DNA of 64,000 nt from Pseudomonadota bacterium (GTDB lineage: Bacteria > Bdellovibrionota_B > Oligoflexia > Oligoflexales > CAIYRB01), in assembly GCA_026390445.1 (NCBI GenBank), contig JAPLFX010000033.1, forward strand, positions 5,731-69,730, read 5' to 3'. Every line of letters starts with the position of its first letter. The first letter of the stretch is position 1. Under the pieces are notes generated by a model. That model saw only the letters and a list, made by a program, of their open reading frames with translations, was not told the origin of the DNA and ran no database searches. The position numbers and the translations under genes are program-made. Below are positions 24,501 through 41,885 of the stretch, in pieces.

Positions 24501-24593
24501 CGCGACCTTAAGCTGCACCTTGGTCTCTTTTGCAACGCAGGCCCACATGCTGCCGAGCAGCAAGGCAATAGCCAAAGTCCGCATCGCCTTCAT
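21522..24593 (-). CDS. Large secreted multidomain protein (carboxypeptidase-regulatory-like Ig domains, Ala/Pro/Thr/Val-rich linker, PEGA-like domain, C-terminal TPR-like helical region)
   Basis: 1023 aa. Signal peptide MKAMRTLAIALLLGSMWA. Several ...G.PL.G..V.....G.TD..GR... units. A PEGA-like unit reads LRIDSRPLGAVVKVEGKVLGKTP. Low complexity is coded around 23860-24330. Confidence 0.7.
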   Translation of the reverse strand: MKAMRTLAIALLLGSMWACVAKETKVQLKVAVKTNQGEPVHAATVQLDGKSLGATNNAGRFEGEVSLPAGAKKRLEIHKDSDTYYFAPYYQAFEVDPSGPQELAVAATLYFVPKPAPAVPAKVAALAETNTETVNTPISTPAAVPSTVPATASEAVTDTAAVAAVAAAGPKVATAAMLAAPKPDILTQVAASSAVTDPVGGDDASTAPAPVVASISVDAAVAAPSKGPGPAVDKSVDKSLDPSLDALSYKGLAHPNSGSQVFTVHVYSGASPLAGVDVAMGEGDTSTLKTACSTNERGRCVIRFTTKPEVLVTFVATKKGYKTAVITVPIQSKDKLRINLDEGRSLDIYALSQAYGHRPGLAGVEVRVGGKRVGETDRFGRYSYIFGGKSDDLLTVSLKPKGFLPEVYETDFVTGGELQLTKAFTPDLPPSVRMTVLSPLPAGNVDKETLSELSGAFGESLRAAARRHLFATSAFKEYPFALYDQAVHLAGKTTSEVLRAGWQDQELKTVVDAVLVPTVVTGPTPTLELSVIGSRGQILSAAKEELSGLTDRGAVDRAVASIAKKIARVFPFEGAVLGKAADEVTINLGQGQGRDVQVGDVLDVYGQQAAKLGRSSVNAKIASLKIREVGEKSAKAQAFGLVPRATIERGDLVILRPRKELKDQRAAPLLVMTELAGKRTAVVQANVYLNNSWIGATDTTGRLYVEGKASGKLRVIKQGFVDLAQVVQLGQDVDKPLVLTIKRQAAFLRIDSRPLGAVVKVEGKVLGKTPLAAPIPVPSGFVKMEVEGPVGYKPYKSVLELDQGTLDLTGEAAVILEQDFRAIAQRLVKAGKTEAALAVLNKIPLEHSDYLMARHEAGELYLTVLDEPAKAAQAFGIVTANPAVKQFVDKRFIGSHIDEGIALFLTAERLSAEHPEAAQAHFSKALEVLDGVIPYLRFVPPGEYTQAVHNVDYHRALCRHRLWTLTQDPRLLVDTVKTWKSYLDGSARTLPADAASKAYVENAQVYLKQATASLNAARNVSRQ

Positions 24594-24602
24594 CGCGCTC
24601 TC

Positions 24603-25022
24603 CTAAAGACTGGGGGGGGTCAAAGTGGCGCGGCCCGCGCCGCGATCTTCATCGACGTGACTGTTGGTCGAGGTTGCCTGGATCTTGGCCGTTACCACCG
24701 GGGTCAGCGTCAAATCGACGGTTGCCTTGTCGGCAAGATCGACCTTCTTTGACTGCGGGGCGTAGCCAGGAACCAAAGCCTCCACCAAATAATGACCATG
24801 CGGCAGACTCTCGGTGGTGGCGTAGCGACCGCTTTGATCGACCACAGCGACGACCACGTTGTTGACCGCTTGGGCGCCATCGCTTGGCGTATCGAGGCGA
24901 GTGATATTGACCCGCGCCTCGCGGCTAGCGATGATTTCGCCGCTGTTGCCGCGTATCTGACCAGCCAAGCTGGGTGCACATGAGGACAGGACTAGGACAC
25001 TAAAAAGCCATCCCTTGTTCAT
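24603..25022 (-). CDS. Small lipoprotein with carboxypeptidase-regulatory-like fold
   Basis: I prefer ATG 25022 (ATGA overlap with the upstream stop). Lipobox LVLSSCAP. VVDQSGRYATTESLPHGHYLVEALVPGYAP resembles CarboxypepD_reg. Confidence 0.65.
   Translation of the reverse strand: MNKGWLFSVLVLSSCAPSLAGQIRGNSGEIIASREARVNITRLDTPSDGAQAVNNVVVAVVDQSGRYATTESLPHGHYLVEALVPGYAPQSKKVDLADKATVDLTLTPVVTAKIQATSTNSHVDEDRGAGRATLTPPSL
24612..24619. repeat. G8/C8 homopolymer tract
   Basis: tggggggggt on the + strand. It codes the Pro-Pro of the last six codons of the 24603..25022 gene and lies just upstream of the AGGAGAG ribosome-binding site of the 1023-aa gene. Confidence 0.9.
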
Positions 25023-25639
25023 TGCACATCCCTTCGTGACAGCCATATCGCCGAGTTAGTCTGGGCCAACCAAACCAATGATGCCGCCGCCTCACGGCGT
25101 AGTTCGCGAAACTGGATACCGCGCGGTATAGACACCGCCAGTGGCTCCTTCTGGGTGAACCCCCGAGCCACGTTAACCGGGCGGATGACCAGCACCATCG
25201 GCAGTTGTGCCATCGCCACGCGCACGACGTTACCGCGAGGCTGACTAACGGCAAGTGTTTGCTGATGCACCCAGCCGTGTTGCCAGGTACCTAGCACCAA
25301 AACCTTACGCCAAACGCCATGGCTCGCCGTTTCGATGACCTGCTTACCTTGGACCAAGACGACATCGGCAAGTTCATAGGCGCTACCGGGTCCCGTCCTG
25401 ACTTCAGCCCTCGGACGCACCACCTCACGTAATTGCAGCATCACCGTTGGCACCGCCAGATCGCCTGCCGGCTCGACGTCGAGCTGATTGTGAAACTCCT
25501 TCGGTATCACCGACTGCATTTGCAACTGCACTTGCGCCGGTGCCGGTGCCGTTTCAGGCGTTTCAGGCAATGAGACGCAGGCGCTTAATAGCGCTAGTCC
25601 GACGTAGCAATAGCAAAGCAAAGGCGAAGTTTGGGCCAT
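25019..25639 (-). CDS. SH3b-domain lipoprotein
   Basis: Lipobox LALLSACVS. The bacterial SH3-like segment is RAEVRTGPGSAYELADVVLVQGKQVIETASHGVWRKVLV. Confidence 0.65.
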   Translation of the reverse strand: MAQTSPLLCYCYVGLALLSACVSLPETPETAPAPAQVQLQMQSVIPKEFHNQLDVEPAGDLAVPTVMLQLREVVRPRAEVRTGPGSAYELADVVLVQGKQVIETASHGVWRKVLVLGTWQHGWVHQQTLAVSQPRGNVVRVAMAQLPMVLVIRPVNVARGFTQKEPLAVSIPRGIQFRELRREAAASLVWLAQTNSAIWLSRRDVQ

Positions 25640-25645
25640 GGCGGA

Positions 25646-26587
25646 TCATCCAGGTTTCGGAGCACCGGTTTTGGCCACACGGCTTTGTTCCAATGGTAGG
25701 CTCGGCGCGCTTGGCACGGGCAGCACATAACCGGAGCGGCTGGCGTCGTTGCGGCCAAAAAGCTCCACGCGAACGTTGGCAAAAGCCCCCTGTTTGCCCG
25801 CCGGGATCGCGAAGGAAAAGCGCTTGCCGGTGAAGCGGCGAATACCAAATAATTCCGCTTTGTGGGGATTGACCACCACGCCGGCGGCGTCGAACATGAG
25901 ATCTTTCGGCGAACTGATGAACAGATGCTCACCCGATGCTGAGATGAATTCGGCGACGGCATAGATGTAACCCTCGACCCGCTTGCTACTACTCTTATTG
26001 GTCAGCTCAAGCCGAAGTTCCAAGCCCTCCGGGGTTGGCTCAAACCGTGCTTTACCGAGCCGGACCTCGACCGGAATCGGCGGCTGTGCTTGAGAGTGTG
26101 GCTTCACCGAATCAACCGGCTTCAGCACAGGCGTCGCATTCGCCAAGGCTGGCACTCCATGCTGTTCGCTTTGCTTGGTGGCAACCGACACAGCCGTAAG
26201 CTCAGCCGCTGGCAGCGGCTTTCCTGCAGCCACACTCGCCGATGGCCCAGGCGCTTGGCCAAGGGCCGCGACCGTTTGGACCTTGGCAGGCTGCGGATAG
26301 GCCAGGTCAAAGACATGCTCGTCGCGGACCTCGTAGTCAAAGATGCTGTTCAATGCCAGCTTTAAGCGCCCCTCTAGCTGCACCTTAGCGCTGACCAAGT
26401 GGACGGTCAGAAAGACACTACCGAGAGACCACAGGAACAGACCAACCAAACCTGCAATCACTAGGCGCAAGCGCCCCACGGAAATCGTCAAAGTGCGCAT
26501 CCGCGCTGAGTCGATAAAATAGATGATGCTCATCTGGCGAGGTCTTGGCCGATGAGCCTTGGACGCATCTGGGTGGGACTTGCCCAT
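25646..26587 (-). CDS. Membrane-anchored protein, unknown function (start uncertain)
   Basis: The track ORF extends to 26779. One strong TM (LRLVIAGLVGLFLWSLGSVFLTVHLV) follows the internal Met codons. I chose ATG 26587, but 26779 and other internal starts are possible. Confidence 0.55.
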   Translation of the reverse strand: MGKSHPDASKAHRPRPRQMSIIYFIDSARMRTLTISVGRLRLVIAGLVGLFLWSLGSVFLTVHLVSAKVQLEGRLKLALNSIFDYEVRDEHVFDLAYPQPAKVQTVAALGQAPGPSASVAAGKPLPAAELTAVSVATKQSEQHGVPALANATPVLKPVDSVKPHSQAQPPIPVEVRLGKARFEPTPEGLELRLELTNKSSSKRVEGYIYAVAEFISASGEHLFISSPKDLMFDAAGVVVNPHKAELFGIRRFTGKRFSFAIPAGKQGAFANVRVELFGRNDASRSGYVLPVPSAPSLPLEQSRVAKTGAPKPG

Positions 26588-26808
26588 GATACCCCGTTCA
26601 TGCAACTCTTTTATTTGGAAGCGCTGGTAATATTGGGAGTTTATGCGGACTTGAAGGCAAACGCAACCGACCTGTGCTAGGAATGGGCCGTTGGGGGCGC
26701 CCTGGCAAGCCGCCATGAATCTGGATAACCCAGCACGGTCACTAGTCAATCTCTGCCCCTTTTGCATTAGCGCAGGCATCCGTTAGACTACCTGGAAAAG
26801 GGACGTGC

Positions 26809-30928: not shown

Positions 30929-33607
30929 TCAATGCTTCGCCTCGCCACTGCCCTGCGCAAATCCTGCAACCATTTCAATCAGCTTCTCAACTTCAAATGG
31001 TTTAGAAATCATATCAAAATTTGGATCAGTCCTATCGCCCAAAACCGCCTGCTTGGTCAACAACTCTCCTGTCGCCATGACAAAAGGCGTTGTTAGGTGC
31101 AACTGGCGAAACTCTAGGTAGAAGGCCATGCCGTCCATCCCATTCATCCGAAGGTCAGAAATCACCAGATCAAATCTCCGCTGATCACGGCGAAGCAAAT
31201 CAAGTGCTGCCTCTCCACCATCGACACTTTCGACTGTGGCAAAATATTCCAAGAGCAATTCAGTAAAGGTTTCGCGCAGGTCACCATCATCCTCGACATA
31301 TAGGACCGATGCCTGGCGCATATCCCGCGGTTTGTGATACACGCCTTTGCCCACGGTGCTGTCTGTTTGGAGCTGATGTTGCTTAGGGATCTTTTGTTTT
31401 GGCAAGGAAAGGGTAAACGTCGATCCCTGATCCAGTTTTGATTGCACGCTGACATCGCCACCGTGACTTCTCACGATTTGGCGGACGTTGGCCAGTCCTA
31501 GTCCAGTGCCAGCATTGGCCTTCTTGGTGGAGAAAAAAAGATCAAAAATCCGCTCGAGGTGCTGCGGATCGATTCCAGTACCCTGATCTTTCACCGAAAA
31601 TAATACCAACTCGCGTGCGTTATCTTCTGCCATGGTGATTTCAATCACACCACTTCTACCAATTTGGGCGTCTTTAGCGTTGTTGATCAGATTCAATAGG
31701 CATTGCAGAATCTCGTTGCCGTTACCAACGATGAGGAGTTGTCCCGGTGCCGTATGATCACGAATCTCGAAGTTGAACTGACGTCCTTCCATGGTATGAA
31801 CAAAAGCCGTAAGATCGTTCAATATGGACCGGCAGTCGGCAAAGGTATAGTCCGCTGCATCGGCGCGAGAATGGCGCAGCAGGCCCTGAACTAAGATGGC
31901 ACCTCGTTCGCAGAACATCTTGATGCGACCGACAGCTGACTCAATTTTTTTACCATCGGACGTGCCAGAGATCAGCTGCGCACCGCCTTGAATGCCAAGC
32001 AAGATATTATTAAAATCATGGGCAATTCCCGTCGATAGTTGGCCAAGCGAGCTAAGTCGTTCGAGTTGTGAGATTCTTACTTGAGCCCGGTGGCTCAACA
32101 TGCGAAAATCTTCAAGAGCCGAATCGACGATATGTAAGTTAAATCTGGCAACAGTCGTCAGGACTTCTTCGGGCCAGGGGATCGACCGATTCTTCCTGAT
32201 TCCCTTCCACTTTTCGAAGGACGACCTTGGCGACAGAACGGATCCGGCCGCATTGGTGTTGACGGCCTTTTCCGGATTGCCAGCCCAGTAGATCGTTTCG
32301 ATCTGCTCGGGCTGAAACCAAAGGAGAAAGCAGTTCTTCGACGTATTTGAGAAATTGACAGGCAACCTAATGGCGATCATGCCACTCGCCGTATCCTTGA
32401 TCGCTTCGGCATCTTCATAGTCGCGCTTCAAATGGTTGGTCTGATACAGCTTTTGATCGGTTAAAATGCTGCCAATCCAGCGACCCAATTTGTGGATGTC
32501 ACTCAGACTTGGGCACACTCCCCAGGTCGTCACCGTTTCATGCTCGATCAAACACAGGCCGCGTGCCCCGGCCGCAAGGAGCAGGGACTCATGGTGGATC
32601 GCTAACGATTCGGCTACGGAGCGATTCCGTTTTAAGTCGGCGATGAACTTTTCTGCGATCAACCCGTTGGTGAACATCCGAACCCTGCGGTGTAGCTCCT
32701 TCCAAGACCCAATTGCAAACGAAGCAACCGCTCCAACTGAGATGCACATTTGCCGACAACTCGGGTCCAAATACCGCGGCCCCTGATAGTGATGGCAAGC
32801 GATGAGGCCCCAAAGCTCGCCATCAGCGATCAAAGAGACGACCAAGGTCGCGCTCACCAGCATATTCTTGAGATACTGAACGTGCATGGGTGAAATGCTA
32901 CGCAAATGACTCATCGTCAGGTCCAGCGGTCCCAAATTTGCTGCAGAAACAACCGCGACCGGCGCATAGTTTACATCGGAAATCATACGAATTAAATTTT
33001 GTTTGTACAGGGCCCTCGCCTGAACCGGAATATCGGTAGCCGGGTAATGCAGTCCAAGCAGTGGTTCAAGGTCTTCATTTTTAGCTTCGGCAACGACGGC
33101 ACCATGGGCATCTTCCTCAAACTGATAGACCATGACGCGGTCATATCCAGTCAACTCTTTGACCAAGCCAGGTAAGCAACTCACGACTTCGTCCAACGAC
33201 TGTTGCCGACCGATGTCCAGTATGCTCTGATGGAACGTCTTTAGCATCGAGGGGGTAGCCGCTTCGTCCTGCGGCTGCAGTTCGACGACCCACTCGTCGT
33301 TGGCTTTAAAGCATCGCCCAACCAAAGAGCGCCCTCTCAGACGAACCTTCTTATCGACGTCGCCAGGATTTTTCGCGACGTCGCGCAACTGCGGATCGAT
33401 CACCGCGATGTCTTGATTGAGTAAGTCCGCTCCCCGCATTCCGATAATCTCGCACAGATTCTCGGAAATCCTCGTAATCCTGCCGATCGCATTCACCGCC
33501 ACGAGGTAGCCAAAGGGCTGAATCAGTCCGGGAATATGAATGGCTTCATGGTCGCAGCTCGTCCCATCAATCGGGGTTGCAGCGACAAGATATTCGGCTT
33601 GATTCAC
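30929..33607 (-). CDS. bphP: Bacteriophytochrome-type hybrid sensor histidine kinase (PAS-GAF-PHY, HisKA, HATPase_c, C-terminal receiver)
   Basis: Chromophore-Cys context TSCDHEAIHIPGLIQPFGYLV, GAF motifs YPATDIPVQARALY and SPMHVQYLKNM, H-box GIAHDFNNIL, GTGLGLA, and receiver VLYVEDD...ISDLRMNGMDG. I prefer GTG at 33607 (GGAGGA 6 nt upstream); the track start is 33658. Confidence 0.9.
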   Translation of the reverse strand: MNQAEYLVAATPIDGTSCDHEAIHIPGLIQPFGYLVAVNAIGRITRISENLCEIIGMRGADLLNQDIAVIDPQLRDVAKNPGDVDKKVRLRGRSLVGRCFKANDEWVVELQPQDEAATPSMLKTFHQSILDIGRQQSLDEVVSCLPGLVKELTGYDRVMVYQFEEDAHGAVVAEAKNEDLEPLLGLHYPATDIPVQARALYKQNLIRMISDVNYAPVAVVSAANLGPLDLTMSHLRSISPMHVQYLKNMLVSATLVVSLIADGELWGLIACHHYQGPRYLDPSCRQMCISVGAVASFAIGSWKELHRRVRMFTNGLIAEKFIADLKRNRSVAESLAIHHESLLLAAGARGLCLIEHETVTTWGVCPSLSDIHKLGRWIGSILTDQKLYQTNHLKRDYEDAEAIKDTASGMIAIRLPVNFSNTSKNCFLLWFQPEQIETIYWAGNPEKAVNTNAAGSVLSPRSSFEKWKGIRKNRSIPWPEEVLTTVARFNLHIVDSALEDFRMLSHRAQVRISQLERLSSLGQLSTGIAHDFNNILLGIQGGAQLISGTSDGKKIESAVGRIKMFCERGAILVQGLLRHSRADAADYTFADCRSILNDLTAFVHTMEGRQFNFEIRDHTAPGQLLIVGNGNEILQCLLNLINNAKDAQIGRSGVIEITMAEDNARELVLFSVKDQGTGIDPQHLERIFDLFFSTKKANAGTGLGLANVRQIVRSHGGDVSVQSKLDQGSTFTLSLPKQKIPKQHQLQTDSTVGKGVYHKPRDMRQASVLYVEDDGDLRETFTELLLEYFATVESVDGGEAALDLLRRDQRRFDLVISDLRMNGMDGMAFYLEFRQLHLTTPFVMATGELLTKQAVLGDRTDPNFDMISKPFEVEKLIEMVAGFAQGSGEAKH

Positions 33608-33842
33608 GACTATTCCTCCAAGTCCGCCAATGAAAGCGAACCAGTGACTACCTGCCACATGGCGGCCGCGCAGCGCGCGGCTGGACGGGAGCTTGGATCA
33701 TAGATCCGCCTCCCCAAACCAGCAAGCGCCGGATGTTAAGCCCTAAATAGGAAAACGCGTGAACCTCAGGCTCAGCTGAGCATCCACGCGCCTAAGTCTA
33801 GTGACCTTGGCCTGCGGCATCATGCCGCGCCGGACCGGCTTA

Positions 33843-34499
33843 TTACTGCAGCAGCGACCCAGGAGCCGGGACAATGACTTCACCTTCTTTGGTACCGGGC
33901 TTGAAAAAGATGCTGTCATTTTTCTTAATGCCTTTGATGTCGCCCTTGACCTTCACTTTGTCGCCGCTTTTAACCTGAGGTGTCTTAGAGTCCATGGCCT
34001 TGGCCAAAATGACACCGCCTTCCGACTTGATCACCAAGGCTTTGACTTCGCCTGCACCGGCAGGCCGTTCGGTCTTTTTAGCGCGAATGCTGCCTTCAGA
34101 AGTCGAGCTCTCCAACGCCAATGCCACATCCTGACCAGCGCGAATCTTAGTCTTTGCGACCTGTGCCAGAAAAGCCTTTTCGTCGCCTGTGAAGACCACG
34201 CTGACCGCCGCCGCACCCTTAGCGGACACCTTCACACCAAAGGTCGCACCGAGCTTCGATTCAAGACTCGACTTGACCGCGTCTGGTGTCACCATCACGC
34301 CTTTACCTAGATCTCCGGCCGGATCAAGCTGGAAGGAATACTCACCAGCCTTCACCTTCGACCATGAAGTCGCCAGTCCCGGCTTGGGCGTGTCACCATC
34401 GAGCTCGATCAGGGTTTTCGCCGCCGCGAACACCTGTTGCGCCGCAAACAAACTCAGACTTGCCAACATCACTCGTACCCACATTGCCGCAACCTTCAT
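33843..34499 (-). CDS. Secreted protein, unknown function
   Basis: ATG 34499 lies behind GGAGG. Signal peptide MKVAAMWVRVMLASLSLFAAQQVFAA. Lys/Gly/Val-rich C-terminal half. Confidence 0.55.
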   Translation of the reverse strand: MKVAAMWVRVMLASLSLFAAQQVFAAAKTLIELDGDTPKPGLATSWSKVKAGEYSFQLDPAGDLGKGVMVTPDAVKSSLESKLGATFGVKVSAKGAAAVSVVFTGDEKAFLAQVAKTKIRAGQDVALALESSTSEGSIRAKKTERPAGAGEVKALVIKSEGGVILAKAMDSKTPQVKSGDKVKVKGDIKGIKKNDSIFFKPGTKEGEVIVPAPGSLLQ

Positions 34500-34569
34500 C
34501 TTCAACCTCCGAAGTGGCACAAACCTGCGCCTGTTCAACAAAGCTCTGGTAGTCCCAGACTCTACTACC

Positions 34570-35121
34570 TTAAGGAAATGCCTGATAGGTGATCACGACC
34601 TTGACATCCGACTTTACCGCAGCAGCGTCCTTGACCGCTGTCCCCGTCACAGGCTTGGCTGCAAGGGCGGGGTCCTCTGGTGACTTACCGTCGACGATGA
34701 CTTTTTTGCCAACCAATTTCTTAAGTCCAGGCGGAACATCGCTAAGGGTGATGACCTTGCCACCTTCGCCGCTAACGGAATAAACGCCGTCCTTGACGGC
34801 CAGGCTACCAACCAGGGCATCGCGGCCGCTCGACATCCTTAAGACTTTAACATCGTCGGCAACAAAGCATTCCCGCTGACCGCCCTTTTTCGTTTGCCAC
34901 CGACCTGAAACCTTGACGACCAGTGGCGTCAAGTGGCGAATGCGCTGCTCCACATCCGAGCCGCAAAGCTGCGGCCCCAACGTCTCCTTCTCCGGTGTAA
35001 TCAAGGTCTGAGCATCAAAGGAGCGCCCCACCACACGAACCAAGCCTTCGATCTCATCGGCCCAAGCCGGACCTGCAAAACCAGAGACCAGCAAGGTGAG
35101 GAGCCATGGACGAATGTTCAT
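34570..35121 (-). CDS. Secreted 2-Cys protein, paralog A of an uncharacterised family
   Basis: Signal peptide ending AWA. Shares GPxLC, RIRHL, GxWQ, GGxxxCFxA, VLRMxxGRxAxVGxL, GxxGK, GxxVIxDxK and a terminal VVxxYxxxP with ORF 37037..37552. Confidence 0.65.
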   Translation of the reverse strand: MNIRPWLLTLLVSGFAGPAWADEIEGLVRVVGRSFDAQTLITPEKETLGPQLCGSDVEQRIRHLTPLVVKVSGRWQTKKGGQRECFVADDVKVLRMSSGRDALVGSLAVKDGVYSVSGEGGKVITLSDVPPGLKKLVGKKVIVDGKSPEDPALAAKPVTGTAVKDAAAVKSDVKVVITYQAFP

Positions 35122-35136
35122 AGTCTTGCGCCCTCG

Positions 35137-36963
35137 CTATTTAATTTGGACGACCGCTACGGCCGTATTTGGCAAGGTATCTTTAGTCTTAAAGCCGACT
35201 TTCAGAGTGCTATCAGTTACCGTGTATAGGTAAGGACAAGTCGCATAGTATTGCAGCTCCGGTGTGGTCACCGCATCCTTAGCAACCTCCGTCCAGGTGT
35301 GCGCCTTTGGTAAGCCGGAAAAGTTATTGTAGTGCATGCCGTAAGAGCGATCAGCCTCGCCGACCAGGTTAGTGGCCTTTTGCGGGTCCTGAACCGTGTA
35401 TTTAGCGTCCGTGTCGCTAATACCTGATCCATCGATCGCCAGAGCACCAAAATAATTGCTGATGGCATCAGTCCAAGCACCGCCAAACTTCTCAGCTAAG
35501 TTCTGCGGTCCGACATGAGTCGCGCTCTTGACGACATCGGCAAGGTACTTCAGCCCGTCACCTCCCGTCGCCACCCCATTGGTAAAGGTCACGCCACCCT
35601 TTTGGCTGATCAAGTAATAGATGAGAGTCTGTGCAGCGCCCCGGTTTAAGGCCAAGTCATCCGCTGCGGAAAGCACCGGATTGACGAGATCCTTATCGTA
35701 CCAGGTGGTCAAAAAGGTTTTGGCAAAGTCATCGAAGTTTTCTCCGCCATGCCCGAACAAGTCCTCGGTATAGTGCGCAATTCCCTCATCGACCTCCGGA
35801 GTCTCCAGGGTCCATTTCTTAGGATCGGCCGATACCTTGCGCGCGCGGAAGTAATTCATAATCGCATGCTGCATCTCATGGGCAATCGTGCCATGCCACA
35901 AGCGCTTATTTTTCGCCGCGTCAACGGCTGCCCCGACGTTTTTACCGACCTTACTGATGTCGGACGCCATGTATATCATCGGCATGTTCGTGCCAACGGT
36001 ATCAGCCGTATCATCCGACATCTTTGCGATAAAGGCCCCCGACACCTGCAGCGCGGCGAGGTTTGGCCACAGTTTGGTGTCGGAAAAGTCGACGATCGTA
36101 AAAATCGGTTTAAAGGTATAGCCATTCACCACGGCAAAGGGATCCTTATAAATCACCTCTTTGTAGCGACGAATCACCTCCTTGATCGAGGCCTCGATCG
36201 TCGCCTTGTCGCCTCCGGTGACAGGATTCGATAGGTAAACGATGCAGTAGTCGGCGGTGCTGACCACCGAGCTTGCGGCCGCAGGAATGACTTTGTCGGT
36301 CGGCACCAAGGAGGCGTTAGGCACCGCGACGGTGCCTCCAGCACTTGGGCAGCTGCTGCTGGCGAGGTTAAAACGAGCGGACCCCAACTTAGGCCGCGTC
36401 GCCTCCGAACTGACCGCACTGCGGTACATCGATTCGACCTCTCCAGGACCATCCGCCGCGGCAAAGCCCGGAGCGTCCTCTGCGTCCACACGCTTCGCCA
36501 AGCGCCAAAACTCATCGCCCTGCGCTGCCCCGAGGCGAGGCTCAAAGCGATTGAGAAGGGTCCTAAGCGCGTCGTCTTTTTGCCGCCAGTTCATGGTCGG
36601 TATCGACCCCGTAGCCGTTGCCACGGACGCTGGCACCTCCGGTTGGGAGTTTAGTAGCTTGGAGCTAGCGGCCGCCGCAGCCACGGACAGCGTTAGGGTA
36701 AACTTCTGAGCACCTGCGCCGGTGACGGTTGCCACATCACCTAAAATCACCGGCATCAGAACAAACTGCGAACCGACGGCAGCCGCAGAGAAATCGATCG
36801 ACGCCAGGCCGCTAACTGCAGTCGTTACCGACCCTTTGCCAGCCACAGCCGTCGGAGACGTGGTCGTCGGTTCCTTATCCTTTTTATCGGTTGTGCCGCA
36901 AGCATGCAGAGCGCCGCCTAGGGCCAGCAACGTCGCGACTCGACTCATTCTCAGTCCATGCAT
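35137..36963 (-). CDS. Lipoprotein with HEXXH zinc-metalloprotease motif (gluzincin-like; possibly M30/hyicolysin-like)
   Basis: ATG 36963 lies behind AAGGAG. Lipobox LALGGALHACG. HEMQH is coded at 35866-35880 within WHGTIAHEMQHAIMNYF, followed by VDEGIAHYTED (candidate third ligand Glu). Confidence 0.7.
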   Translation of the reverse strand: MHGLRMSRVATLLALGGALHACGTTDKKDKEPTTTSPTAVAGKGSVTTAVSGLASIDFSAAAVGSQFVLMPVILGDVATVTGAGAQKFTLTLSVAAAAASSKLLNSQPEVPASVATATGSIPTMNWRQKDDALRTLLNRFEPRLGAAQGDEFWRLAKRVDAEDAPGFAAADGPGEVESMYRSAVSSEATRPKLGSARFNLASSSCPSAGGTVAVPNASLVPTDKVIPAAASSVVSTADYCIVYLSNPVTGGDKATIEASIKEVIRRYKEVIYKDPFAVVNGYTFKPIFTIVDFSDTKLWPNLAALQVSGAFIAKMSDDTADTVGTNMPMIYMASDISKVGKNVGAAVDAAKNKRLWHGTIAHEMQHAIMNYFRARKVSADPKKWTLETPEVDEGIAHYTEDLFGHGGENFDDFAKTFLTTWYDKDLVNPVLSAADDLALNRGAAQTLIYYLISQKGGVTFTNGVATGGDGLKYLADVVKSATHVGPQNLAEKFGGAWTDAISNYFGALAIDGSGISDTDAKYTVQDPQKATNLVGEADRSYGMHYNNFSGLPKAHTWTEVAKDAVTTPELQYYATCPYLYTVTDSTLKVGFKTKDTLPNTAVAVVQIK

Positions 36964-37015
36964 GCCAACTCCTTTGTTCTGACCAAACAGATTGCTCACC
37001 ACCAAATGATGGACC

Positions 37016-37037
37016 AATTGACGCTAAGACGTCAATT
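37016..37037. repeat. Perfect 8-bp inverted repeat (aattgacg-N6-cgtcaatt) in an intergenic junction
   Basis: Read directly from the sequence. It spans the end of paralog B and the spacer before the HEXXH lipoprotein gene. Confidence 0.6.
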
Positions 37038-37552
37038 CAGGGATAGCGACGGTAGCTTACGACGACCTTATTAACATCCATGATCGCCGGATTGGCCATT
37101 GGCTTGAGATCGAGGATCACTTGTTCCCCCATCATCTGCCGCAGACGCGGCGTCAGATCCGCTAGGCGTTCGATTTTGCCGTCGTCCCCGGTGAGCAGAT
37201 AGCCACCACCGCTTTCAGAGGCGCTGAGCCGACCCACCGCTGCCTCGCGGCCACCTACCATGCGCAGAACCTGGAACGACGATGCTGCAAAGCAGTCTTT
37301 AACCCCGCCCTGACGCAACTGCCAGGTGCCCACAGTTCGCACCTGTAGCTGACTCAGGTGGCGAATCCGGTAGCCGATCTCTCCCGGGCACAATCTAGGG
37401 CCGTGGTGACTCTTATCAATATCGATATGCGTCTCGGTATGAAGATCGCCGCCGCTGACGTAAACCACCCCGACTAGGTCCTCGGCTTGAAGCGGCGTCG
37501 CACAGCAAAGCCAGAGCCACAACCAGGACCACGGAGACTTGATCCAACTCAC
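37037..37552 (-). CDS. Secreted 2-Cys protein, paralog B of the same uncharacterised family
   Basis: Trp-rich signal peptide MSWIKSPWSWLWLWLCCATPLQA. Conserved blocks are shared with 34570..35121. The start overlaps the upstream stop by 4 nt. Confidence 0.65.
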   Translation of the reverse strand: MSWIKSPWSWLWLWLCCATPLQAEDLVGVVYVSGGDLHTETHIDIDKSHHGPRLCPGEIGYRIRHLSQLQVRTVGTWQLRQGGVKDCFAASSFQVLRMVGGREAAVGRLSASESGGGYLLTGDDGKIERLADLTPRLRQMMGEQVILDLKPMANPAIMDVNKVVVSYRRYP

Positions 37553-38196
37553 TTTGCCGCTCCATTTAAAGGGGACGTCGATGCCGGCACCGCCGGCGGT
37601 GTGTGCGGGGCCGGCACCTGAGCGCTACAGGTGATGGCAGTTAGCCTTTCTGGGTCTAGATTGCGCCTGCAGGCTTCCTTATTCAACTTGGCCTTAGCCT
37701 CGCACTCGCTGGCCCCAGCTGCTTTGACAGCCAAATCAGGATTTAGATGCTGGCTGCCGTAGGCATCCGCACGGCACTTGGTCGGCTGACCATGCGCCTG
37801 ACACACCGCGCTTGCCGGTGGACAATGGCCGTTGCTAGCGTCCGGGACGCACTGGACTTCACCGAGCTTAGACGGCAAAAGGCCTGCAGCACATATTTGG
37901 CGATGCAGGTTTAGTTTCGCAGCGCAGCCATTGGGCCCCCAAGCGATCGACTGCTCGGCAACAGACTGGGCCTTACCAGCATAGGCTGCGGCGGAACAAA
38001 CCATCGGGTTGTAATCCATCGTGCAAACGGTGTTGCGAATCGGACATTCGGCGACAGAGGGCACATCTGCTACTGCAGGCGCCGTTGCTTTGGCCACGGG
38101 AGCAGCAACAGTCGCTGGGACTGGTACCACCGTTGGAGTTGTGCACGCTGCGACCATCAGCAGACTACAGCAAACATAAATGCGCATAGATCCCAT
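37549..38196 (-). CDS. Cys-rich lipoprotein with a tandem 6-Cys repeat
   Basis: Lipobox LLMVAAC. Two repeats (residues 51-116 and 125-190) have identical spacing C-x6-C-x8-C-x23-C-x10-C-x13-C. The ATG shares one nucleotide with the flgD stop (TGATG). Confidence 0.65.
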   Translation of the reverse strand: MGSMRIYVCCSLLMVAACTTPTVVPVPATVAAPVAKATAPAVADVPSVAECPIRNTVCTMDYNPMVCSAAAYAGKAQSVAEQSIAWGPNGCAAKLNLHRQICAAGLLPSKLGEVQCVPDASNGHCPPASAVCQAHGQPTKCRADAYGSQHLNPDLAVKAAGASECEAKAKLNKEACRRNLDPERLTAITCSAQVPAPHTPPAVPASTSPLNGAAK

Positions 38197-39404
38197 CAGG
38201 CCTTCTGGGCTTTAGCTGACGCTAGTTTATCGGATTTAACGGGGACCGGAGAGGGCTTTTCGACCTTCACAGCAGGGACTTGCGCCGCCGGAACTGGTCC
38301 AGGAACCGAGATCGGCAGCCGGACCGCAGTCTGCTCGCCAGAGCTGCCGTTGTTTAGACCAGTCGAGGCGGCGCCGGCACGCTTAGGCTCGGGTGTCTGC
38401 GCGTTTTGCTGCGCTGCTACCGCCACCGTTTTGGCCGGCGCCGGCGACCCTTCAGCGACGGCATCGCCAGCTAATGGTGGCACAAGATTTTCAACACTTG
38501 CCGGCCGAACCTTGCTATAGCCTTGCGAACCCACGGACGCCACCTCGCGCACACCAACCTTACCAACTGCGGTGTAAAACGAACCGCCGCCGTCGTGCAG
38601 ATCAACCCCAGTGACCTGGAGGGTGCTGGACACAGGTGCCGCTAAAGTCTGACCCTGCATATCCGTGGCTTGAATGCTAAAGGTGTAGGCACCGTCCGAC
38701 AGCGGTTTACCATTCTTATTGCCGCCGCTCCATTCCAGCTTGGTTTCCCCCGGCGCCACGTGGCCTAAGTCCTTGCTGGCAACAACCACCCCGGCACCGT
38801 CACGCACTTCAAGAATGGTCTTCACCGACTCGCTGTCGAGTTTGAAGCTCGCGTCCGTGGCCACTTTGCCACCCTCGACCATCAACTTGCCGTTATCCAG
38901 CTTGATGTCCTTACCGACAAAGTTGAGCAGGGTGACGGCTCGGCCAAGGGCCTCGTCGTTCTGCATCTTCTCGAGGTTTTTATTGACATTCATCATCTGC
39001 TCTAGACCGTGGAACTGCGCCAATTGCGCGGCCATCTGCGAGCTGTTGTCGGGGCTCATGGGATCCTGGTTGCGCATCTGCGTTACGAACAGTTTCAAAA
39101 AGGCGTCCTTGTCCAACTCGTTTTGCGGTTTACGCGTCACGCCTTGGTTTGCCTTGGCGGCCATCATCTTGGCAAACTCATCATCGGACTTAGCCATGCG
39201 CAGTTGATCGCCGTTTTTCTGTGCGACGCGCTCGCGGGCGGTATCATCATTCGAGTTCAGCAGAATATCGCGAAAGCTAGCTTTATCAGGCGCTCCGCCG
39301 TCCACCGCTTTCGCCGCGTCCGGCGCATTCACCTTGACATCGCTGAAGTCGCGCGTCGCGGGTGACTCGAAGGGCTTAAATTTGGCTTCCGTCGCTGCAT
39401 TCAT
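38196..39404 (-). CDS. flgD: Flagellar hook assembly/capping protein FlgD
   Basis: N-terminal FlgD block DKDAFLKLFVTQMRNQDPMSPDNSSQMAAQLAQFHGLEQ. FlgD Ig-like region LEWSGGNKNGKPLSDGAYTFSIQATD. Extended Pro/Ala-rich C-terminus. Confidence 0.88.
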   Translation of the reverse strand: MNAATEAKFKPFESPATRDFSDVKVNAPDAAKAVDGGAPDKASFRDILLNSNDDTARERVAQKNGDQLRMAKSDDEFAKMMAAKANQGVTRKPQNELDKDAFLKLFVTQMRNQDPMSPDNSSQMAAQLAQFHGLEQMMNVNKNLEKMQNDEALGRAVTLLNFVGKDIKLDNGKLMVEGGKVATDASFKLDSESVKTILEVRDGAGVVVASKDLGHVAPGETKLEWSGGNKNGKPLSDGAYTFSIQATDMQGQTLAAPVSSTLQVTGVDLHDGGGSFYTAVGKVGVREVASVGSQGYSKVRPASVENLVPPLAGDAVAEGSPAPAKTVAVAAQQNAQTPEPKRAGAASTGLNNGSSGEQTAVRLPISVPGPVPAAQVPAVKVEKPSPVPVKSDKLASAKAQKA

Positions 39405-39437
39405 AGCTGTTCATCCTTATCGTCAACTAATGCCGAG

Positions 39438-41819
39438 TCAGGCACGGACTGCGATCCTACCTTGATCGTTGACTTGACCTTGCAGCATTGCGGCCGGTAC
39501 CCGCGGCCGTGCGATCGTACTCACAGGGTTGACCTGAGGTGTGCGGACTTGTCCCCGCCATTCATCCTGCGACCGACCACCCATTTGTTGCCCGCCGCCC
39601 TGCTGGTTCATCCCAGTGAATTGCTGCTGGGACTGCGGCTGCCGGCCACTCACGCCGACCTCGACCTTGCCGAGCTGGACGTTTTGGATCGCTAAGGCGC
39701 CTTTCAATTGGTTCAGGTCGGCGGCGATGGCATCACGAGCGCGGTCAGATCCGGCGAGTACGCGCAGATCGATCTTGTCTTTGTTCATATTTAGGGCCAA
39801 CTCAAGCGGTCCGAACTCAGGTGAACTCAAGTCGAGTCGCACCGTACCGCCACCCTGCTTTACCAACATCGTCGCGTGGTTGACCACCTTCTGCATCAAA
39901 TCGAAGCGATTCTGCACGTTTAGTGGCTCAGTAGTGGCGGCGGCCGACGTTGCAAAGCTAGTCGTATGCGTTTGCTGGGTCTGCGGTTGGTGTAGACTCA
40001 GGCCTAGCTCGCGGAGGCCTTTACCGTGGTCCGATTGCTGACCAGGATCACGGCTTGGCTGCTCGCCGCCCGAAGAGTTGCGGTCGCCACTCTTCTCCTC
40101 AGAGGTCATCATGAGCATCGGTGACTGCAGGCGAAGGTCCTGCATCGGCTGCGCTGAGCTTTGCGGCGCATCGAACCTAATCGTTTCCACCTTGGTCAGG
40201 CCAAAGACATCGGAGTTATTTTGCATCAGGTCACGGAGAAGCGCCTTTTGATCGAGAGCCTCAAAACGAGCGCCCTGGGAGGAGGCTGAGGCCGGCATCA
40301 CCGTCGCGACCTCCGTGGTTTTAACCTGCATCATCACCACGCCTGGGTCATTGGCTCGCCCCTTAAGCAACGCAAAGGCTGCCTCGGGTTTACCTGATAC
40401 ATCGAGGCCACGGCTAAGTATCTGTTCGTTGAGAAAAGGGTCAAAGGACACTGCTCGCTGCGTCGGCTCAGGGTCTGCTAGCACCACCGTATCAGCAGCC
40501 CGCATCTTGGCGCCGAGCTGAGCAAACGCATCAAAAGAAGCTTTGTTTAATGTTGCTGGCTGGTCAAAGTCGTTCCTCGGGCGTGCCAGTGGGGCATCTT
40601 GCAGCGTCAAGACATCGAGAGAACCATCTGGATTGGCTCTAGCGATGACGGCTTCGAGAGAGTCATCGACGCCATTCGGTGCCCTGAGCATTGAAGCGGC
40701 GACGACCACGCGCTCGTCCGCGGGAGCCAATGGAGTCGCCTTAAGCAGGTCAGAGATTGGCCGTTGCGTTCTCGGCAATCCCTGCATAGCTGCCATCAGA
40801 GCTTGCGGCGACAGCTCATCGGACTGGCTAGGCCGCTCAGGTAACGCTTCGGCCGGTATCTGCAAGCCAGGGTTTAATCCGTTTAGCCCGTTTAATCCAG
40901 GATAAGGCTTGGGCTCCAACGGTGTTGGAGATAGCGTGTTCGGCTTGGCAACCCAGGCAAAGCCGATCGGATCCACATCGGCGACTAATGGGATGGTCGG
41001 AGTCACCGGCGTTGGCCCTGGCATCTGCTGCTGGCCTAACTGACCCAGCCGGTCCGCCTGAATTGGCTGCACCGGCTGTGGCTGCAGGGCAACAGGCGCA
41101 ACCAGGTCGGCAGTCGTGGGGTTCAGCGCCTGCGCCCGATTGATATAGGGCGCCAAGCCTTCAAGCGGCAGATTAGCCTTCAGTTGCGTCAGCTCAGCCA
41201 TCACCCTTTGCGGGTCAATGCCCATGGCCTTGAGAAAGGCGTTTGGCGTGAGCTTTTGCCCAGGATCCAACCCGACGGCCTGAACCTGCTGGAGCATTTG
41301 AGGCGGTAGTCCAAGATCATTAACAAGGTCGGCAACAGCTGCCGGCTTGTTTAGGTACTCGGGAATCTCATCGGTCGATAGCGCGTCATTGATGAATTTA
41401 TTGCCCGTCACCAGAGCTGGAATGTCGGTTGCAGGAACCCTATCGAGTTTCCCGGTTAACATAGCGACTGCGGGAGATTTATCGACGTCATGTTTGACTG
41501 CCGCCGAAGTCCTTTTCGGCGCCTGACCAGCCGTCGTCGACGAGTCATTGACCTGTGCGTCTTGTGTACCCCTGGTGGGAGTTGGCCTGGCCGCCGTGCC
41601 TGCAGCCGCAGCTGAGGTAGCTTGGCTACCACTGGGAGCCGCGCTCGGCTTCATCAGCTCATCGCTAAAACTCCGCCCGCTGCCCGCCTTAGCTGCCGGC
41701 ACGACAGACGGCTGATTGACACGCGTGCCCTCCGGCGCTGGCGCCGCGGTCATCGGCATGGGGTTTTGCGAGGTGAGGAGACTGGCGGCCACTAAAGTTT
41801 TCTCCGTTGAATCCGACAA
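39438..41819 (-). CDS. fliK: Flagellar hook-length control protein FliK
   Basis: Long Pro/Gln/Ala-rich low-complexity body. C-terminal FliK domain GGGTVRLDLSSPEFGPLELALNMNKDKIDLRVLAGSDRARDAI...LKGAL. The track start is TTG 41819; GTG 41792 (GGAG upstream) is an alternative. Confidence 0.8.
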   Translation of the reverse strand: MSDSTEKTLVAASLLTSQNPMPMTAAPAPEGTRVNQPSVVPAAKAGSGRSFSDELMKPSAAPSGSQATSAAAAGTAARPTPTRGTQDAQVNDSSTTAGQAPKRTSAAVKHDVDKSPAVAMLTGKLDRVPATDIPALVTGNKFINDALSTDEIPEYLNKPAAVADLVNDLGLPPQMLQQVQAVGLDPGQKLTPNAFLKAMGIDPQRVMAELTQLKANLPLEGLAPYINRAQALNPTTADLVAPVALQPQPVQPIQADRLGQLGQQQMPGPTPVTPTIPLVADVDPIGFAWVAKPNTLSPTPLEPKPYPGLNGLNGLNPGLQIPAEALPERPSQSDELSPQALMAAMQGLPRTQRPISDLLKATPLAPADERVVVAASMLRAPNGVDDSLEAVIARANPDGSLDVLTLQDAPLARPRNDFDQPATLNKASFDAFAQLGAKMRAADTVVLADPEPTQRAVSFDPFLNEQILSRGLDVSGKPEAAFALLKGRANDPGVVMMQVKTTEVATVMPASASSQGARFEALDQKALLRDLMQNNSDVFGLTKVETIRFDAPQSSAQPMQDLRLQSPMLMMTSEEKSGDRNSSGGEQPSRDPGQQSDHGKGLRELGLSLHQPQTQQTHTTSFATSAAATTEPLNVQNRFDLMQKVVNHATMLVKQGGGTVRLDLSSPEFGPLELALNMNKDKIDLRVLAGSDRARDAIAADLNQLKGALAIQNVQLGKVEVGVSGRQPQSQQQFTGMNQQGGGQQMGGRSQDEWRGQVRTPQVNPVSTIARPRVPAAMLQGQVNDQGRIAVRA

Positions 41820-41869
41820 GGACTAGAAGCGCGTCGATCTCGGTAAATAGAACGACTCGTATCTACCTA

Positions 41870-41885
41870 AGCAGGAAGCGTGCCA
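41870..41885 (-). promoter_or_regulatory. Sigma-54 (-24/-12) type promoter upstream of fliK
   Basis: The minus strand reads TGGCACGCTTCCTGCT. Against the consensus TGGCAC-N5-TTGCW there is one mismatch and correct GG/GC spacing. It lies about 50-80 nt upstream of the candidate fliK starts. Confidence 0.5.

What the first reader, a model, noticed from the sequence alone, without database searches (positions are those of the whole stretch)
33843..41885. fliK-flgD operon continues, with overlapping stop/start codons, into five uncharacterised exported proteins instead of a hook gene
Seen in the sequence:
- A sigma-54-type promoter (41870-41885) precedes fliK and flgD.
- The flgD stop shares a nucleotide with the ATG of a Cys-rich lipoprotein (TGATG at 38194-38198).
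- That gene's stop overlaps the next start by 4 nt (37549-37552).
- Three more same-strand genes follow with gaps of only about 15-75 nt.
- All five products carry signal peptides or lipoboxes.

Established knowledge: flgD is normally followed by the hook gene flgE, or sits among rod/hook genes. No flgE is present in this window.

Inference: the five genes form a periplasmic or outer-envelope module co-expressed with hook assembly. One possibility is a protease with partner proteins acting at the site of rod/hook penetration. I recognise no described flagellar accessory system with this composition.
Basis: partly seen in the sequence, partly recalled or inferred. Interest (0 to 1): 0.78.

Follow-up and report, generated by a model that had tools for sequence, protein, structure and literature searches.

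The report
Hook-gene operon carrying an exported metalloprotease module
In a deep, uncultured branch of Bdellovibrionota, the two "disposable" flagellar hook-assembly genes fliK and flgD are always followed, tightly packed on the same strand, by genes for an outer-membrane zinc protease and its small exported partners. This is a conserved but functionally untested add-on to a flagellar operon.

Summary
A sigma-54-type promoter (41885-41870) precedes fliK and flgD. flgD overlaps a Cys-rich lipoprotein gene (TGATG), which overlaps the next gene (GTGA). Three more exported-protein genes follow. No flgE or other flagellar gene is in the window.

The five genes:
- g1: lipoprotein with two copies of a new 6-Cys domain.
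- g2 and g4: paralogous small periplasmic proteins with a DUF5818-like C-terminus.
- g3: 608-aa lipoprotein with invariant HExxH...E. It is a gluzincin in no Pfam family and only remotely linked to M30.
- g5: periplasmic protein whose first ~60 residues resemble the N-terminus of family-5 solute-binding proteins.

Fifteen independent loci keep the order fliK-flgD-[g1]-[g2]-g3-[g4]-g5. Across them RNase G identity to the window falls to 41% and g3 identity to about 25%. Insertions occur only before fliK or after g5.

The core is older than the link. g1-g3-g4 stands alone in one relative, and protease plus g4-like pairs occur without flagellar genes in two outgroup loci.

Verdict: a real, conserved, clade-specific operon extension. 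A role in hook assembly is plausible but unproven.

The parts
41870..41885 (-). sigma-54-type promoter (TGGCACG-N4-CTGCT) upstream of fliK
   Evidence: Read. It is the only match in the window. Equivalent sites lie upstream of fliK in 7 related loci.
39438..41792 (-). fliK, hook-length control protein (about 784 aa from the conserved GTG; the ORF extends to the TTG at 41819)
   Evidence: Pfam Flg_hook 1.5e-12, 47.6 bits against a cut-off of 29.8. NCBIfam FliK 7e-6. The GTG start behind GGAG is conserved in relatives.
38196..39404 (-). flgD, hook cap/scaffold protein (402 aa, with N-terminal and Pro/Ala-rich C-terminal extensions)
   Evidence: Pfam FlgD 1.1e-19 and FlgD_ig 3.4e-14. NCBIfam FlgD 1.8e-36. 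GenBank labels it 'hypothetical protein' MCX6108912.1.
37549..38196 (-). g1: lipoprotein with two tandem copies of a 6-Cys domain (C-6-C-8-C-23-C-10-C-13-C); its start overlaps the flgD stop
   Evidence: Cys spacing. Alignments A5/A6 show the Cys invariant or nearly so. AF2 pLDDT is above 90 over the repeats. No Pfam, PDB-sequence or Foldseek match. The family has only 14 clusters. Relatives carry 1-3 repeats.
37037..37552 (-). g2: periplasmic protein, paralog of g4; the GTG start overlaps the g1 stop by 4 nt
   Evidence: 35% identity to g4, E 8e-37. Weak DUF5818 hit, 0.01. This extra copy is present only in the window, L001, L011 and L013.
35137..36963 (-). g3: 608-aa lipoprotein zinc metalloprotease (gluzincin, remotely M30-like)
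   Evidence: H362, E363, H366 and E393 are invariant in 70 homologs. AF2 pLDDT 82.6, pTM 0.84. Best PDB folds are M1 aminopeptidases, E 2.7e-3. No Pfam family reaches significance for any of 70 members. Distant relatives score marginally on Peptidase_M30 and Peptidase_MA_2.
34570..35121 (-). g4: periplasmic partner protein with two conserved Cys and a DUF5818-like C-terminus
   Evidence: Alignment A4. DUF5818 is hit by 8 of 15 family members, best 2.6e-5. It follows the protease also in the non-flagellar loci L005, L015 and L020.
34545..34559 (-). weak terminator-like hairpin in the g4-g5 gap
   Evidence: Terminator-like sites in the region are no more frequent than in shuffles, so this is only a flag.
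33843..34499 (-). g5: periplasmic 218-aa protein, the best conserved of the five (47-56% identity in most related loci, 32-37% in the deepest, against 24-44% for g3)
   Evidence: Alignment A3. Identity table. Residues ~25-86 match the N-terminal segment of family-5 solute-binding proteins (NikA/OppA; PDB profile search 6.5e-5). Absent from the free-standing module in L005.

Best explanation
This is a clade-specific, conserved transcription unit of an uncultured Bdellovibrionota lineage. The sigma-54-driven hook-assembly genes fliK and flgD are co-expressed with a Sec/Lol-exported zinc-metalloprotease module.

Shown:
- g3 is a lipoprotein gluzincin with an intact catalytic motif.
- g4 (duplicated here as g2) is its ancient small periplasmic partner.
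- g1 (a new disulfide-rich lipoprotein) and g5 (with a solute-binding-protein-like N-terminus) are later, clade-specific additions.
- The run fliK-flgD-...-g5 is kept intact and tightly packed over deep divergence.

Inferred:
- The protease is anchored to the periplasmic face of the outer membrane (no Asp at position +2).
- It is held in check or targeted by g4/g2 and g1.
- It is made at the same time as FliK and FlgD. These are the two hook-stage proteins that are exported and then discarded.
- The protease therefore most likely degrades or processes exported flagellar proteins, or remodels the envelope, during hook assembly.

The operon link is the firm part. The substrate is a guess.
For: Gene identities.

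Conserved order in 15 independent loci: the window, L001, L002, L003/4, L006, L007, L008, L009, L014, L031, L032, L033, L034, L035 and a JGI contig.

Depth of the clade: RNase G identity to the window falls to 41%, FlgD to 33-35% and g3 to ~25%. GC content ranges from 39% to 57%.

Tight junctions:
- flgD-g1: overlap of 1 nt in the window and L001, 6 nt gap in L031, 18 nt gap in L008.
- flgD-g3: overlap of 20 nt in L034, 13 nt gap in L035.
- g3-g4: overlapping in L014, L034 and L035.

Rearrangements sit only at the two ends. They are a phytochrome gene in the window; TOBE, a response regulator and a small ORF in L008; RCC1 and a three-gene block with a fatty-acid hydroxylase in the JGI contig; a four-gene block with GmrSD and HEPN genes in L009; LysR instead of M1 peptidase in L006; and extra genes in L033 and L035. 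None lies inside the run.

The sigma-54-type site upstream of fliK is conserved in 8 loci counting the window, and none lies in the flgD-g1 gaps that were scanned.

The catalytic residues are invariant, so the protease is probably active.
Against: - The g1-g3-g4 trio in L005 has no flagellar gene within 10 kb.
- Protease plus g4-like pairs in L015 and L020 have no flagellar neighbours.
- The neighbouring housekeeping blocks (L21-L27-Obg and RNase G-KdtA-heptosyltransferase) are also syntenic. Adjacency alone is therefore weak evidence.
- Gaps of 60-150 nt separate flgD and g1 in seven loci. L007 has an 11-bp-stem terminator-like hairpin there, and L009 a sigma-70-like site.
- None of the five proteins resembles a known flagellar component.
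- There are no expression or phenotype data; the organisms are uncultured MAGs.
Confidence: 0.45

Rival explanations
1. The module is a general envelope, nutritional or predation-related protease system: a lipoprotein gluzincin plus a cognate periplasmic partner or inhibitor. It has nothing to do with the flagellum mechanistically. It landed downstream of flgD in an ancestor and has stayed there, perhaps only to share the timing of a motile or attack-phase promoter.
For: - The protease plus g4-like pair predates the link and occurs in unrelated contexts. In L005 and L015 it sits divergently next to a YdbH/AsmA-like gene, and in L020 it lies beside a DUF4388 gene.
- The wider protease family has 453 representatives at E<=1e-3, most matching only the catalytic region.
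- The whole neighbourhood is syntenic, including non-flagellar blocks.
- Some relatives have intergenic gaps and a terminator-like hairpin between flgD and g1.
Against: - 15 of 16 loci with full-length orthologs and enough flank keep the module directly behind flgD.
- Codons overlap in the deepest branches.
- No insertion has ever split flgD from the module, although at least six indels hit the flanks.
- g5, the best conserved member, is found only in the flagellar-linked arrangement.
Confidence: 0.4
2. The five proteins are new structural parts of the flagellar motor (a periplasmic disk, cage or collar, as with FlgP/FlgT/PflA in other lineages). On this reading the protease fold serves as a scaffold rather than as an enzyme.
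For: - All are exported and two are lipoproteins.
- They are encoded in a flagellar operon.
- Lineage-specific periplasmic motor additions are common (my own knowledge; compare the complex-motor preprint listed).
Against: - The zinc ligands and catalytic Glu are invariant in 70 homologs, which argues for catalysis.
- The composition varies: g1 is missing in L033-L035, g4 is missing in L031, and g2 is extra in four loci.
- The core also exists without flagellar genes.
- There is no similarity to known motor components.
Confidence: 0.08
3. Chance adjacency or ORF-calling artefact: the downstream ORFs are not real genes, or the overlaps are meaningless.
For: None beyond the fact that ORF lists are mechanical.
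Against: - All five have homologs with conserved motifs, signal peptides and Shine-Dalgarno sites.
- Two gave confident AF2 models.
- The order recurs in 15 loci.
Confidence: 0.02

Closest known systems
Peptidase family M30 (hyicolysin) / MA-clan gluzincins such as M1 aminopeptidases
   Same: - HExxH followed ~27 residues later by the motif DEGxAHxxED, which supplies a Glu.
- The predicted thermolysin-like catalytic domain superposes best on M1 enzymes (F3, APN, ERAP1).
- Distant relatives of g3 score marginally on Pfam Peptidase_M30 and Peptidase_MA_2.
   Different: - g3 and 69 full-length homologs hit no Pfam family at significance.
- No solved structure is close; the best Foldseek E-value is 2.7e-3 with TM 0.27.
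- g3 is a lipoprotein with its own N-terminal beta domain, a conserved helical DHxxRxLxNRFDP region and a C-terminal beta domain.
- It has a dedicated operon partner.
Protease plus adjacent small periplasmic inhibitor operons (serralysin AprA/AprI-Inh; protealysin/emfourin); from my own knowledge
   Same: A secreted or exported metalloprotease gene is directly followed, often with overlapping codons, by a gene for a small Sec-exported protein. This pairing is conserved over long evolutionary distance (g3-g4 in L005, L015 and L020).
   Different: - No sequence or fold similarity of g4 or g1 to these inhibitors was found or could be tested (no model of g4 was made).
- Inhibition is only an inference.
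- Here there are up to three partner proteins, and the whole set sits in a flagellar operon.
Sec-exported accessory proteins encoded in flagellar operons (e.g. FlhE in flhBAE of enterics; FlgA, FlgP, FlgT)
   Same: These are periplasmic, non-T3SS-exported proteins co-transcribed with flagellar assembly genes. FlhE acts at the rod-to-hook transition (PMC13344023, as read).
   Different: - No homology to any of them.
- None of those is a protease.
- The present module has an autonomous, non-flagellar ancestry.
Flagellinolysin (NCBIfam NF033876), a protease domain embedded in clostridial flagellin
   Same: It is a zinc metalloprotease genetically tied to the flagellum. It is the only named family hit for g3 in NCBIfam (E 0.017).
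   Different: - The hit covers only the HExxH region (60 residues, 14.6 bits against a cut-off of 205).
- Flagellinolysin is part of the filament and exported by the T3SS. g3 is a Sec-exported lipoprotein.

Membership tests
FlgD (hook cap/scaffold) | N-terminal FlgD domain plus Ig-like domain, above Pfam gathering scores | tested here: met
   PF03963 70.8 bits (cut-off 27) and PF13860 53 bits (cut-off 27). NCBIfam FlgD models reach 1.8e-36 but stay below the equivalog cut-offs.
FliK (hook-length control) | C-terminal Flg_hook switch domain | tested here: met
   PF02120 47.6 bits (cut-off 29.8) at residues 650-728.
sigma-54-dependent promoter | -24 GG and -12 GC elements with TGGCAC-N5-TTGC spacing, upstream of the gene; dependence on RpoN and an enhancer-binding protein | tested here: inconclusive
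   The sequence match is present and conserved in 7 related loci. A single match in 64 kb is not rare by chance (37 of 100 shuffles). RpoN dependence cannot be tested here.
MA-clan gluzincin metalloprotease | HExxH zinc-binding/catalytic motif plus a downstream Glu as third ligand, on a thermolysin-like fold | tested here: met
   H362, E363, H366 and E393 are invariant in 70 sequences. The model has helices at 349-375 and 389-402 carrying them. Best folds are M1 aminopeptidases, probability 1.00, E 2.7e-3. Activity itself was not tested.
Peptidase M30 (hyicolysin, PF10460) | Score at or above the Pfam gathering threshold over the M30 domain | tested here: not met
   No hit for g3 or for any of 70 full-length homologs. 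Only more distant relatives reach 18-25.8 bits against the cut-off of 25.8.
Bacterial lipoproteins (g1, g3) | Signal peptide ending in a lipobox [LVI][ASTVI][GAS]C with a conserved Cys | tested here: met
   g1 has VAAC (Cys18) and g3 has LHAC (Cys22). The Cys is at least 90% conserved in orthologs. Lipidation and outer-membrane sorting are not testable here.
DUF5818 (PF19135), for g2 and g4 | Score above the Pfam gathering threshold (27 bits) | tested here: inconclusive
   g2 scores 15.8 bits (E 0.01) and g4 12.7 bits (E 0.093). Eight of 15 family members hit it, best 2.6e-5. This is probably a remote relationship, and the family has no known function.
Family-5 solute-binding proteins (SBP_bac_5), for g5 | Two-lobed ~500-aa binding protein covering the PF00496 domain | tested here: not met
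   Only residues ~25-86 align with the N-terminal segment of NikA/OppA-type proteins (6.5e-5). One of 12 members hits PF00496 weakly, at 0.0011. g5 is 218 aa, so it cannot form the binding fold.
Kazal-type or other known Cys-rich protease inhibitors, for g1 | Kazal disulfide pattern and fold, or a fold match to a solved inhibitor | tested here: not met
   The Cys spacing 6-8-23-10-13 does not fit the Kazal signature. The confident AF2 model has no meaningful Foldseek match in the PDB; the best hits are ribosomal proteins at rmsd above 14 A. No Pfam hit.
Known periplasmic flagellar accessory proteins (FlgA, FlgH, FlgI, FlgP, FlgT, FlhE, MotX/Y) | Match to the corresponding Pfam or NCBIfam model | tested here: not met
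   No such hit for g1-g5 at E<=0.1, nor among their orthologs.

The most novel reading that the evidence does not exclude
The module is a dedicated periplasmic disposal or processing system for the two throw-away hook-assembly proteins. An outer-membrane-anchored gluzincin, guided or restrained by g4/g2, g1 and g5, would degrade or trim FlgD caps and FliK rulers that are released into the periplasm (or into a flagellar sheath) during hook assembly. That would explain why precisely fliK and flgD, and no other flagellar gene, share its operon. It would be the first described protease system built into a flagellar assembly operon.
Probability: 0.15. Interest if true: 0.8.

Novelty: new variant of a known kind. 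Interest (0 to 1): 0.55.

Why it matters
If the link is functional, it would add a proteolytic step to flagellar hook assembly, such as clearance or maturation of exported scaffold and ruler proteins. No such step is part of the textbook pathway. It would also give a first function to three protein families that currently have no annotation:
- the g3 gluzincin family, with about 70 full-length representatives and hundreds of remote ones;
- the new 6-Cys domain of g1;
- the DUF5818-like partner.

Even if the link is only regulatory, the locus defines a widespread 'lipoprotein metalloprotease plus small periplasmic partner' pair and a clean synteny marker for a deep, uncultured Bdellovibrionota lineage. 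All five genes, and even flgD, are deposited as 'hypothetical protein'.

Tried and rejected
- **Kazal-like inhibitor idea for g1.** The motif 'C-x3-Y-x-P-x2-C ... N-x-C ... A-C' looked Kazal-like by eye. The spacing does not fit, and the confident AF2 model found no inhibitor fold in the PDB. Rejected.
- **g3 as a member of M30 or flagellinolysin.** Only motif-level or transitive similarity. Not filed as a member.
- **g5 as a solute-binding protein.** Only a 60-residue N-terminal segment matches. Rejected as a member.
- **PDB sequence searches with profiles of g1, g3 and g4.** Nothing meaningful. The Pcc1 hit for g4 is a 22-residue low-information stretch.
- **Second word-indexed protein search with the alignment.** It returned the same 24 proteins. 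The exhaustive profile search was what opened up the family.
- **Extra promoters in the flgD-g1 gaps.** No sigma-54 or sigma-28 pattern in the gaps scanned. The simple sigma-70 and terminator scans gave isolated, non-conserved hits.
- **Rfam and tRNA scans of the window.** Nothing.
- **Literature.** No paper on DUF5818, on M30 lipoproteins in flagellar operons, or on fliK-flgD-protease operons.

Full report
**1. What is in the sequence**

On the minus strand between 41885 and 33843 lie seven genes in one direction.

Pfam places the first two genes above its gathering scores:
- The first is FliK (Flg_hook, 1.5e-12).
- The second is FlgD (FlgD N-terminal domain 1.1e-19; Ig-like domain 3.4e-14).

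NCBIfam agrees.

Upstream of fliK sits TGGCACGCTTCCTGCT (41885-41870), one base off the sigma-54 consensus. It is the only match to TGGCAC-N5-YTGC in the window. One match somewhere in 64 kb is not unusual by chance (37 of 100 shuffles). A comparable site, however, lies 45-164 nt upstream of fliK in L001, L003, L006, L007, L008, L009 and L014.

flgD and g1 share a base (TGATG, 38198-38194), and g1 and g2 overlap by four bases (GTGA, 37552-37549). The remaining gaps, measured from starts that have good Shine-Dalgarno sites, are 73, 15 and 70 nt.

All five downstream products begin with export signals. Two are lipoboxes whose Cys is conserved in orthologs. Three are type-I signal peptides, judged by eye.

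Pfam scans of 20 of the window's larger ORFs outside the finding found only housekeeping families and no flagellar gene. The M1 peptidase, RNase G and a phytochrome-like kinase were recognised by synteny or by eye. Rfam and tRNA scans of the window were empty.

The only correction is that fliK most likely starts at the conserved GTG at 41792.

**2. Where the window comes from**

The exact proteins are in GenBank on a 74-kb MAG contig labelled 'Proteobacteria/Pseudomonadota bacterium', with locus tags NTZ90_04795 (g5) to NTZ90_04820 (flgD). All are deposited as 'hypothetical protein'. A more distant ortholog of g3 comes from a MAG labelled 'Bdellovibrionota bacterium'. I therefore treat the clade as an uncultured Bdellovibrionota lineage. 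Its exact rank is unknown.

**3. What the five proteins are**

*g3 (35137-36963, 608 aa)* is the anchor.
- A first search found only 24 relatives among 5.8 billion clusters. An exhaustive profile search found 453 representatives at E<=1e-3 and 76 at E<=1e-30, of which about 70 are full length.
- In an alignment of 70 full-length sequences, H362, E363, H366 and E393 are invariant. The motif DEGxAHxxED is nearly so. This is the gluzincin signature.
- The AlphaFold model is confident (pLDDT 82.6, pTM 0.84). Its best PDB matches are M1 aminopeptidases (F3, APN, ERAP1). The match is weak (E 2.7e-3, TM 0.27), so no close solved structure exists.
- Neither g3 nor any of the 70 homologs reaches a Pfam family.
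- More remote relatives match the g3 profile only over the catalytic region. They score marginally on Peptidase_M30 and Peptidase_MA_2.
- I file g3 as an MA-clan gluzincin that is remotely M30-like but not a member of M30.

*g4 (34570-35121) and g2 (37037-37552)* are paralogs (35% identity, E 8e-37). Each has two conserved Cys and a C-terminus remotely related to DUF5818 (8 of 15 family members hit it, best 2.6e-5).

*g1 (37549-38196)* is a lipoprotein with two copies of a 6-Cys unit of fixed spacing, C-6-C-8-C-23-C-10-C-13-C.
- Relatives carry one to three copies.
- The family has only 14 clusters.
- The AF2 model is confident over the repeats (pLDDT above 90). It has no meaningful match in the PDB and no Pfam hit.
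- My initial idea that it is Kazal-like is not supported.

*g5 (33843-34499)* is the best conserved of the five. It is 47-56% identical in most related loci and 32-37% in the deepest, where g3 is 24-44%. Its residues ~25-86 match the N-terminal segment of family-5 solute-binding proteins (NikA/OppA, 6.5e-5). The protein is far too short to be one.

**4. Comparative genomics: is the link to fliK-flgD conserved?**

I recovered the neighbourhood of g3 orthologs from the following sources:
- genome contigs;
- metagenome contigs;
- exact look-ups.

I assigned genes by BLASTP and by profile HMMs.

Fifteen independent loci have the order fliK-flgD-[g1]-[g2]-g3-[g4]-g5 on one strand. They are the window, L001, L002, L003/4, L006, L007, L008, L009, L014, L031, L032, L033, L034, L035 and a JGI contig. 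L010-L013 are cut off upstream and are uninformative.

The clade is deep. RNase G, the convergent neighbour, falls from 99% to 41% identity to the window. FlgD falls to 33-35% and g3 to ~25%. GC content ranges from 39% to 57%.

The composition varies:
- g1 is absent in L033, L034 and L035.
- g4 is absent in L031.
- The extra g2 is present only in the window, L001, L011 and L013.

In the deep branches that lack g1 the genes are packed very tightly. In L034 flgD and g3 overlap by 20 nt and g3 and g4 by 4 nt. L035 has a 13-nt gap, then abutting genes. Where g1 is present, the flgD-g1 distance ranges from a 1-nt overlap to a 148-nt gap.

The flanking blocks are also syntenic: L21-L27-Obg and an alpha/beta hydrolase upstream, and RNase G-KdtA-heptosyltransferase downstream. 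Adjacency alone is therefore not proof of a functional link.

Every rearrangement I saw, however, lies before fliK or after g5:
- a phytochrome kinase in the window;
- TOBE, a response regulator and a small ORF in L008;
- an RCC1 protein and a three-gene block with a fatty-acid hydroxylase in the JGI contig;
- a four-gene block with GmrSD and HEPN genes in L009;
- LysR in place of the M1 peptidase in L006;
- extra genes in L033 and L035.

None splits flgD from the module or splits the module itself. That pattern, together with the overlapping codons, is what one expects of a selected transcription unit.

**5. Evidence that the module is older than the link**

L005 carries the g3 ortholog that is 33% identical to the window's. 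There a one-repeat g1, g3 and g4 stand alone, with no flagellar gene within 10 kb. They are transcribed divergently from a YdbH/AsmA-like gene plus DUF1318.

Two remote proteases are also followed directly by a g4-like protein:
- L015: hmmsearch E 6e-8, again next to an AsmA-like gene.
- L020: hhalign probability 72%, E 3.3e-5, with overlapping stop and start codons.

The protease plus g4 pair is therefore an old, autonomous unit. g1 and g5 are additions inside the clade, and g5 occurs only in the flagellar-linked arrangement.

Further points against strict co-transcription in all members:
- an 11-bp-stem terminator-like hairpin between flgD and g1 in L007;
- a sigma-70-like site in the same gap in L009;
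- a weak hairpin in the window's g4-g5 gap.

**6. Most likely mechanism**

Shown:
- An intact zinc-protease active site on a lipoprotein.
- A conserved small exported partner.
- A conserved operon-like union with fliK and flgD behind a sigma-54-type promoter.

Inferred:
- The protease is tethered to the periplasmic face of the outer membrane. Position +2 is Gly or Thr, not Asp, under the E. coli sorting rule, which may not hold here.
- g4/g2, and perhaps g1, control or target the protease. This is by analogy with protease-inhibitor operons such as AprA/AprI or protealysin/emfourin (my own knowledge; not tested).
- The protease is produced when FliK and FlgD are produced.

FliK and FlgD are the two hook-stage proteins that are exported and then discarded. 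In Salmonella, early substrates including FliK are known to enter the periplasm before the rod breaches the outer membrane (PMC13344023). The reading I find most attractive is a clearance or processing protease for these proteins. It rests only on gene association, so I give it about 0.15.

I give about 0.45 to the broader statement, a conserved co-expressed protease module with a role tied to the hook-assembly stage. I give about 0.40 to the rival that it is a general envelope or predation protease that merely shares the locus or its timing. A purely structural role is unlikely because the catalytic residues are invariant.

**7. Novelty and score**

No profile library and no paper I could search describes this combination. 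The parts belong to known kinds: a flagellar operon with Sec-exported accessories, and a gluzincin with an operon partner. The union, the g1 domain and the g3 family are new.

I rate it a new variant of a known kind, with interest 0.55. It is a robust and unexpected genomic association in a deep lineage. It is held back by the lack of any functional evidence and by the autonomous ancestry of the core.

Noticed in passing
window 30929-33658 (minus strand); compare L001 13118-13220: A 909-aa ORF that by eye looks like a bacteriophytochrome-type histidine kinase with a C-terminal receiver (not scanned against Pfam) follows g5 on the same strand after 185 nt. In the ~92-93% identical relative L001, window 31002-33844 is missing. 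The last ~70 nt of this gene (encoding ...PFEVEKLIEMVAGFAQGSGE.KH*) sit directly after the g5 stop. This is a strain-level deletion, or possibly an assembly artefact, rather than an insertion in the window. The gene's GC content is 51%, against 57% for the window.
   Followed up: partly
L005 12433-13449 (minus strand): A bacterial 338-aa exported protein has four Pacifastin_I inhibitor domains (1.2e-18, 67 bits against a cut-off of 27.9) plus VWC and TILa hits. It lies convergent to the free-standing g1-g3-g4 module. Pacifastin domains are known mainly from arthropods (my own knowledge).
   Followed up: no
L005 4963-9351 and L015 2208-6374: In both non-flagellar occurrences with enough flank, the protease plus g4-like pair is transcribed divergently from a large AsmA/DUF748 (YdbH-like) gene. 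L005 also has a DUF1318 (YdbL-like) gene. This may hint at an envelope or outer-membrane-lipid context for the ancestral pair.
   Followed up: partly
window 38196-39404: FlgD is deposited in GenBank as 'hypothetical protein' (MCX6108912.1) despite clear FlgD and FlgD_ig domains. It is unusually long (402 aa), with an ~80-aa N-terminal extension and a ~100-aa Pro/Ala-rich C-terminal tail. Clade relatives share this feature (351-462 aa).
   Followed up: partly
L033 about 130 nt and L035 about 75 nt upstream of fliK: The two deep-branching loci lack a canonical sigma-54 site. They share a similar element upstream of fliK: CGTGCAAACTCTGCC in L033 and TGTGCAAAGTCTGCA in L035. This could be a degenerate -24/-12 promoter or a different conserved site.
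   Followed up: no
window 17674-26779 and related loci: A conserved neighbourhood on the far side of RNase G-KdtA-heptosyltransferase includes two or three proteins without Pfam hits and a ~1000-aa PEGA-domain protein (window 21522-24593). It recurs in L003, L006, L007, L032 and L033. The window additionally has a PilZ-domain protein (17674-18603) and a full-length SBP_bac_5 protein (18545-20140).
   Followed up: no
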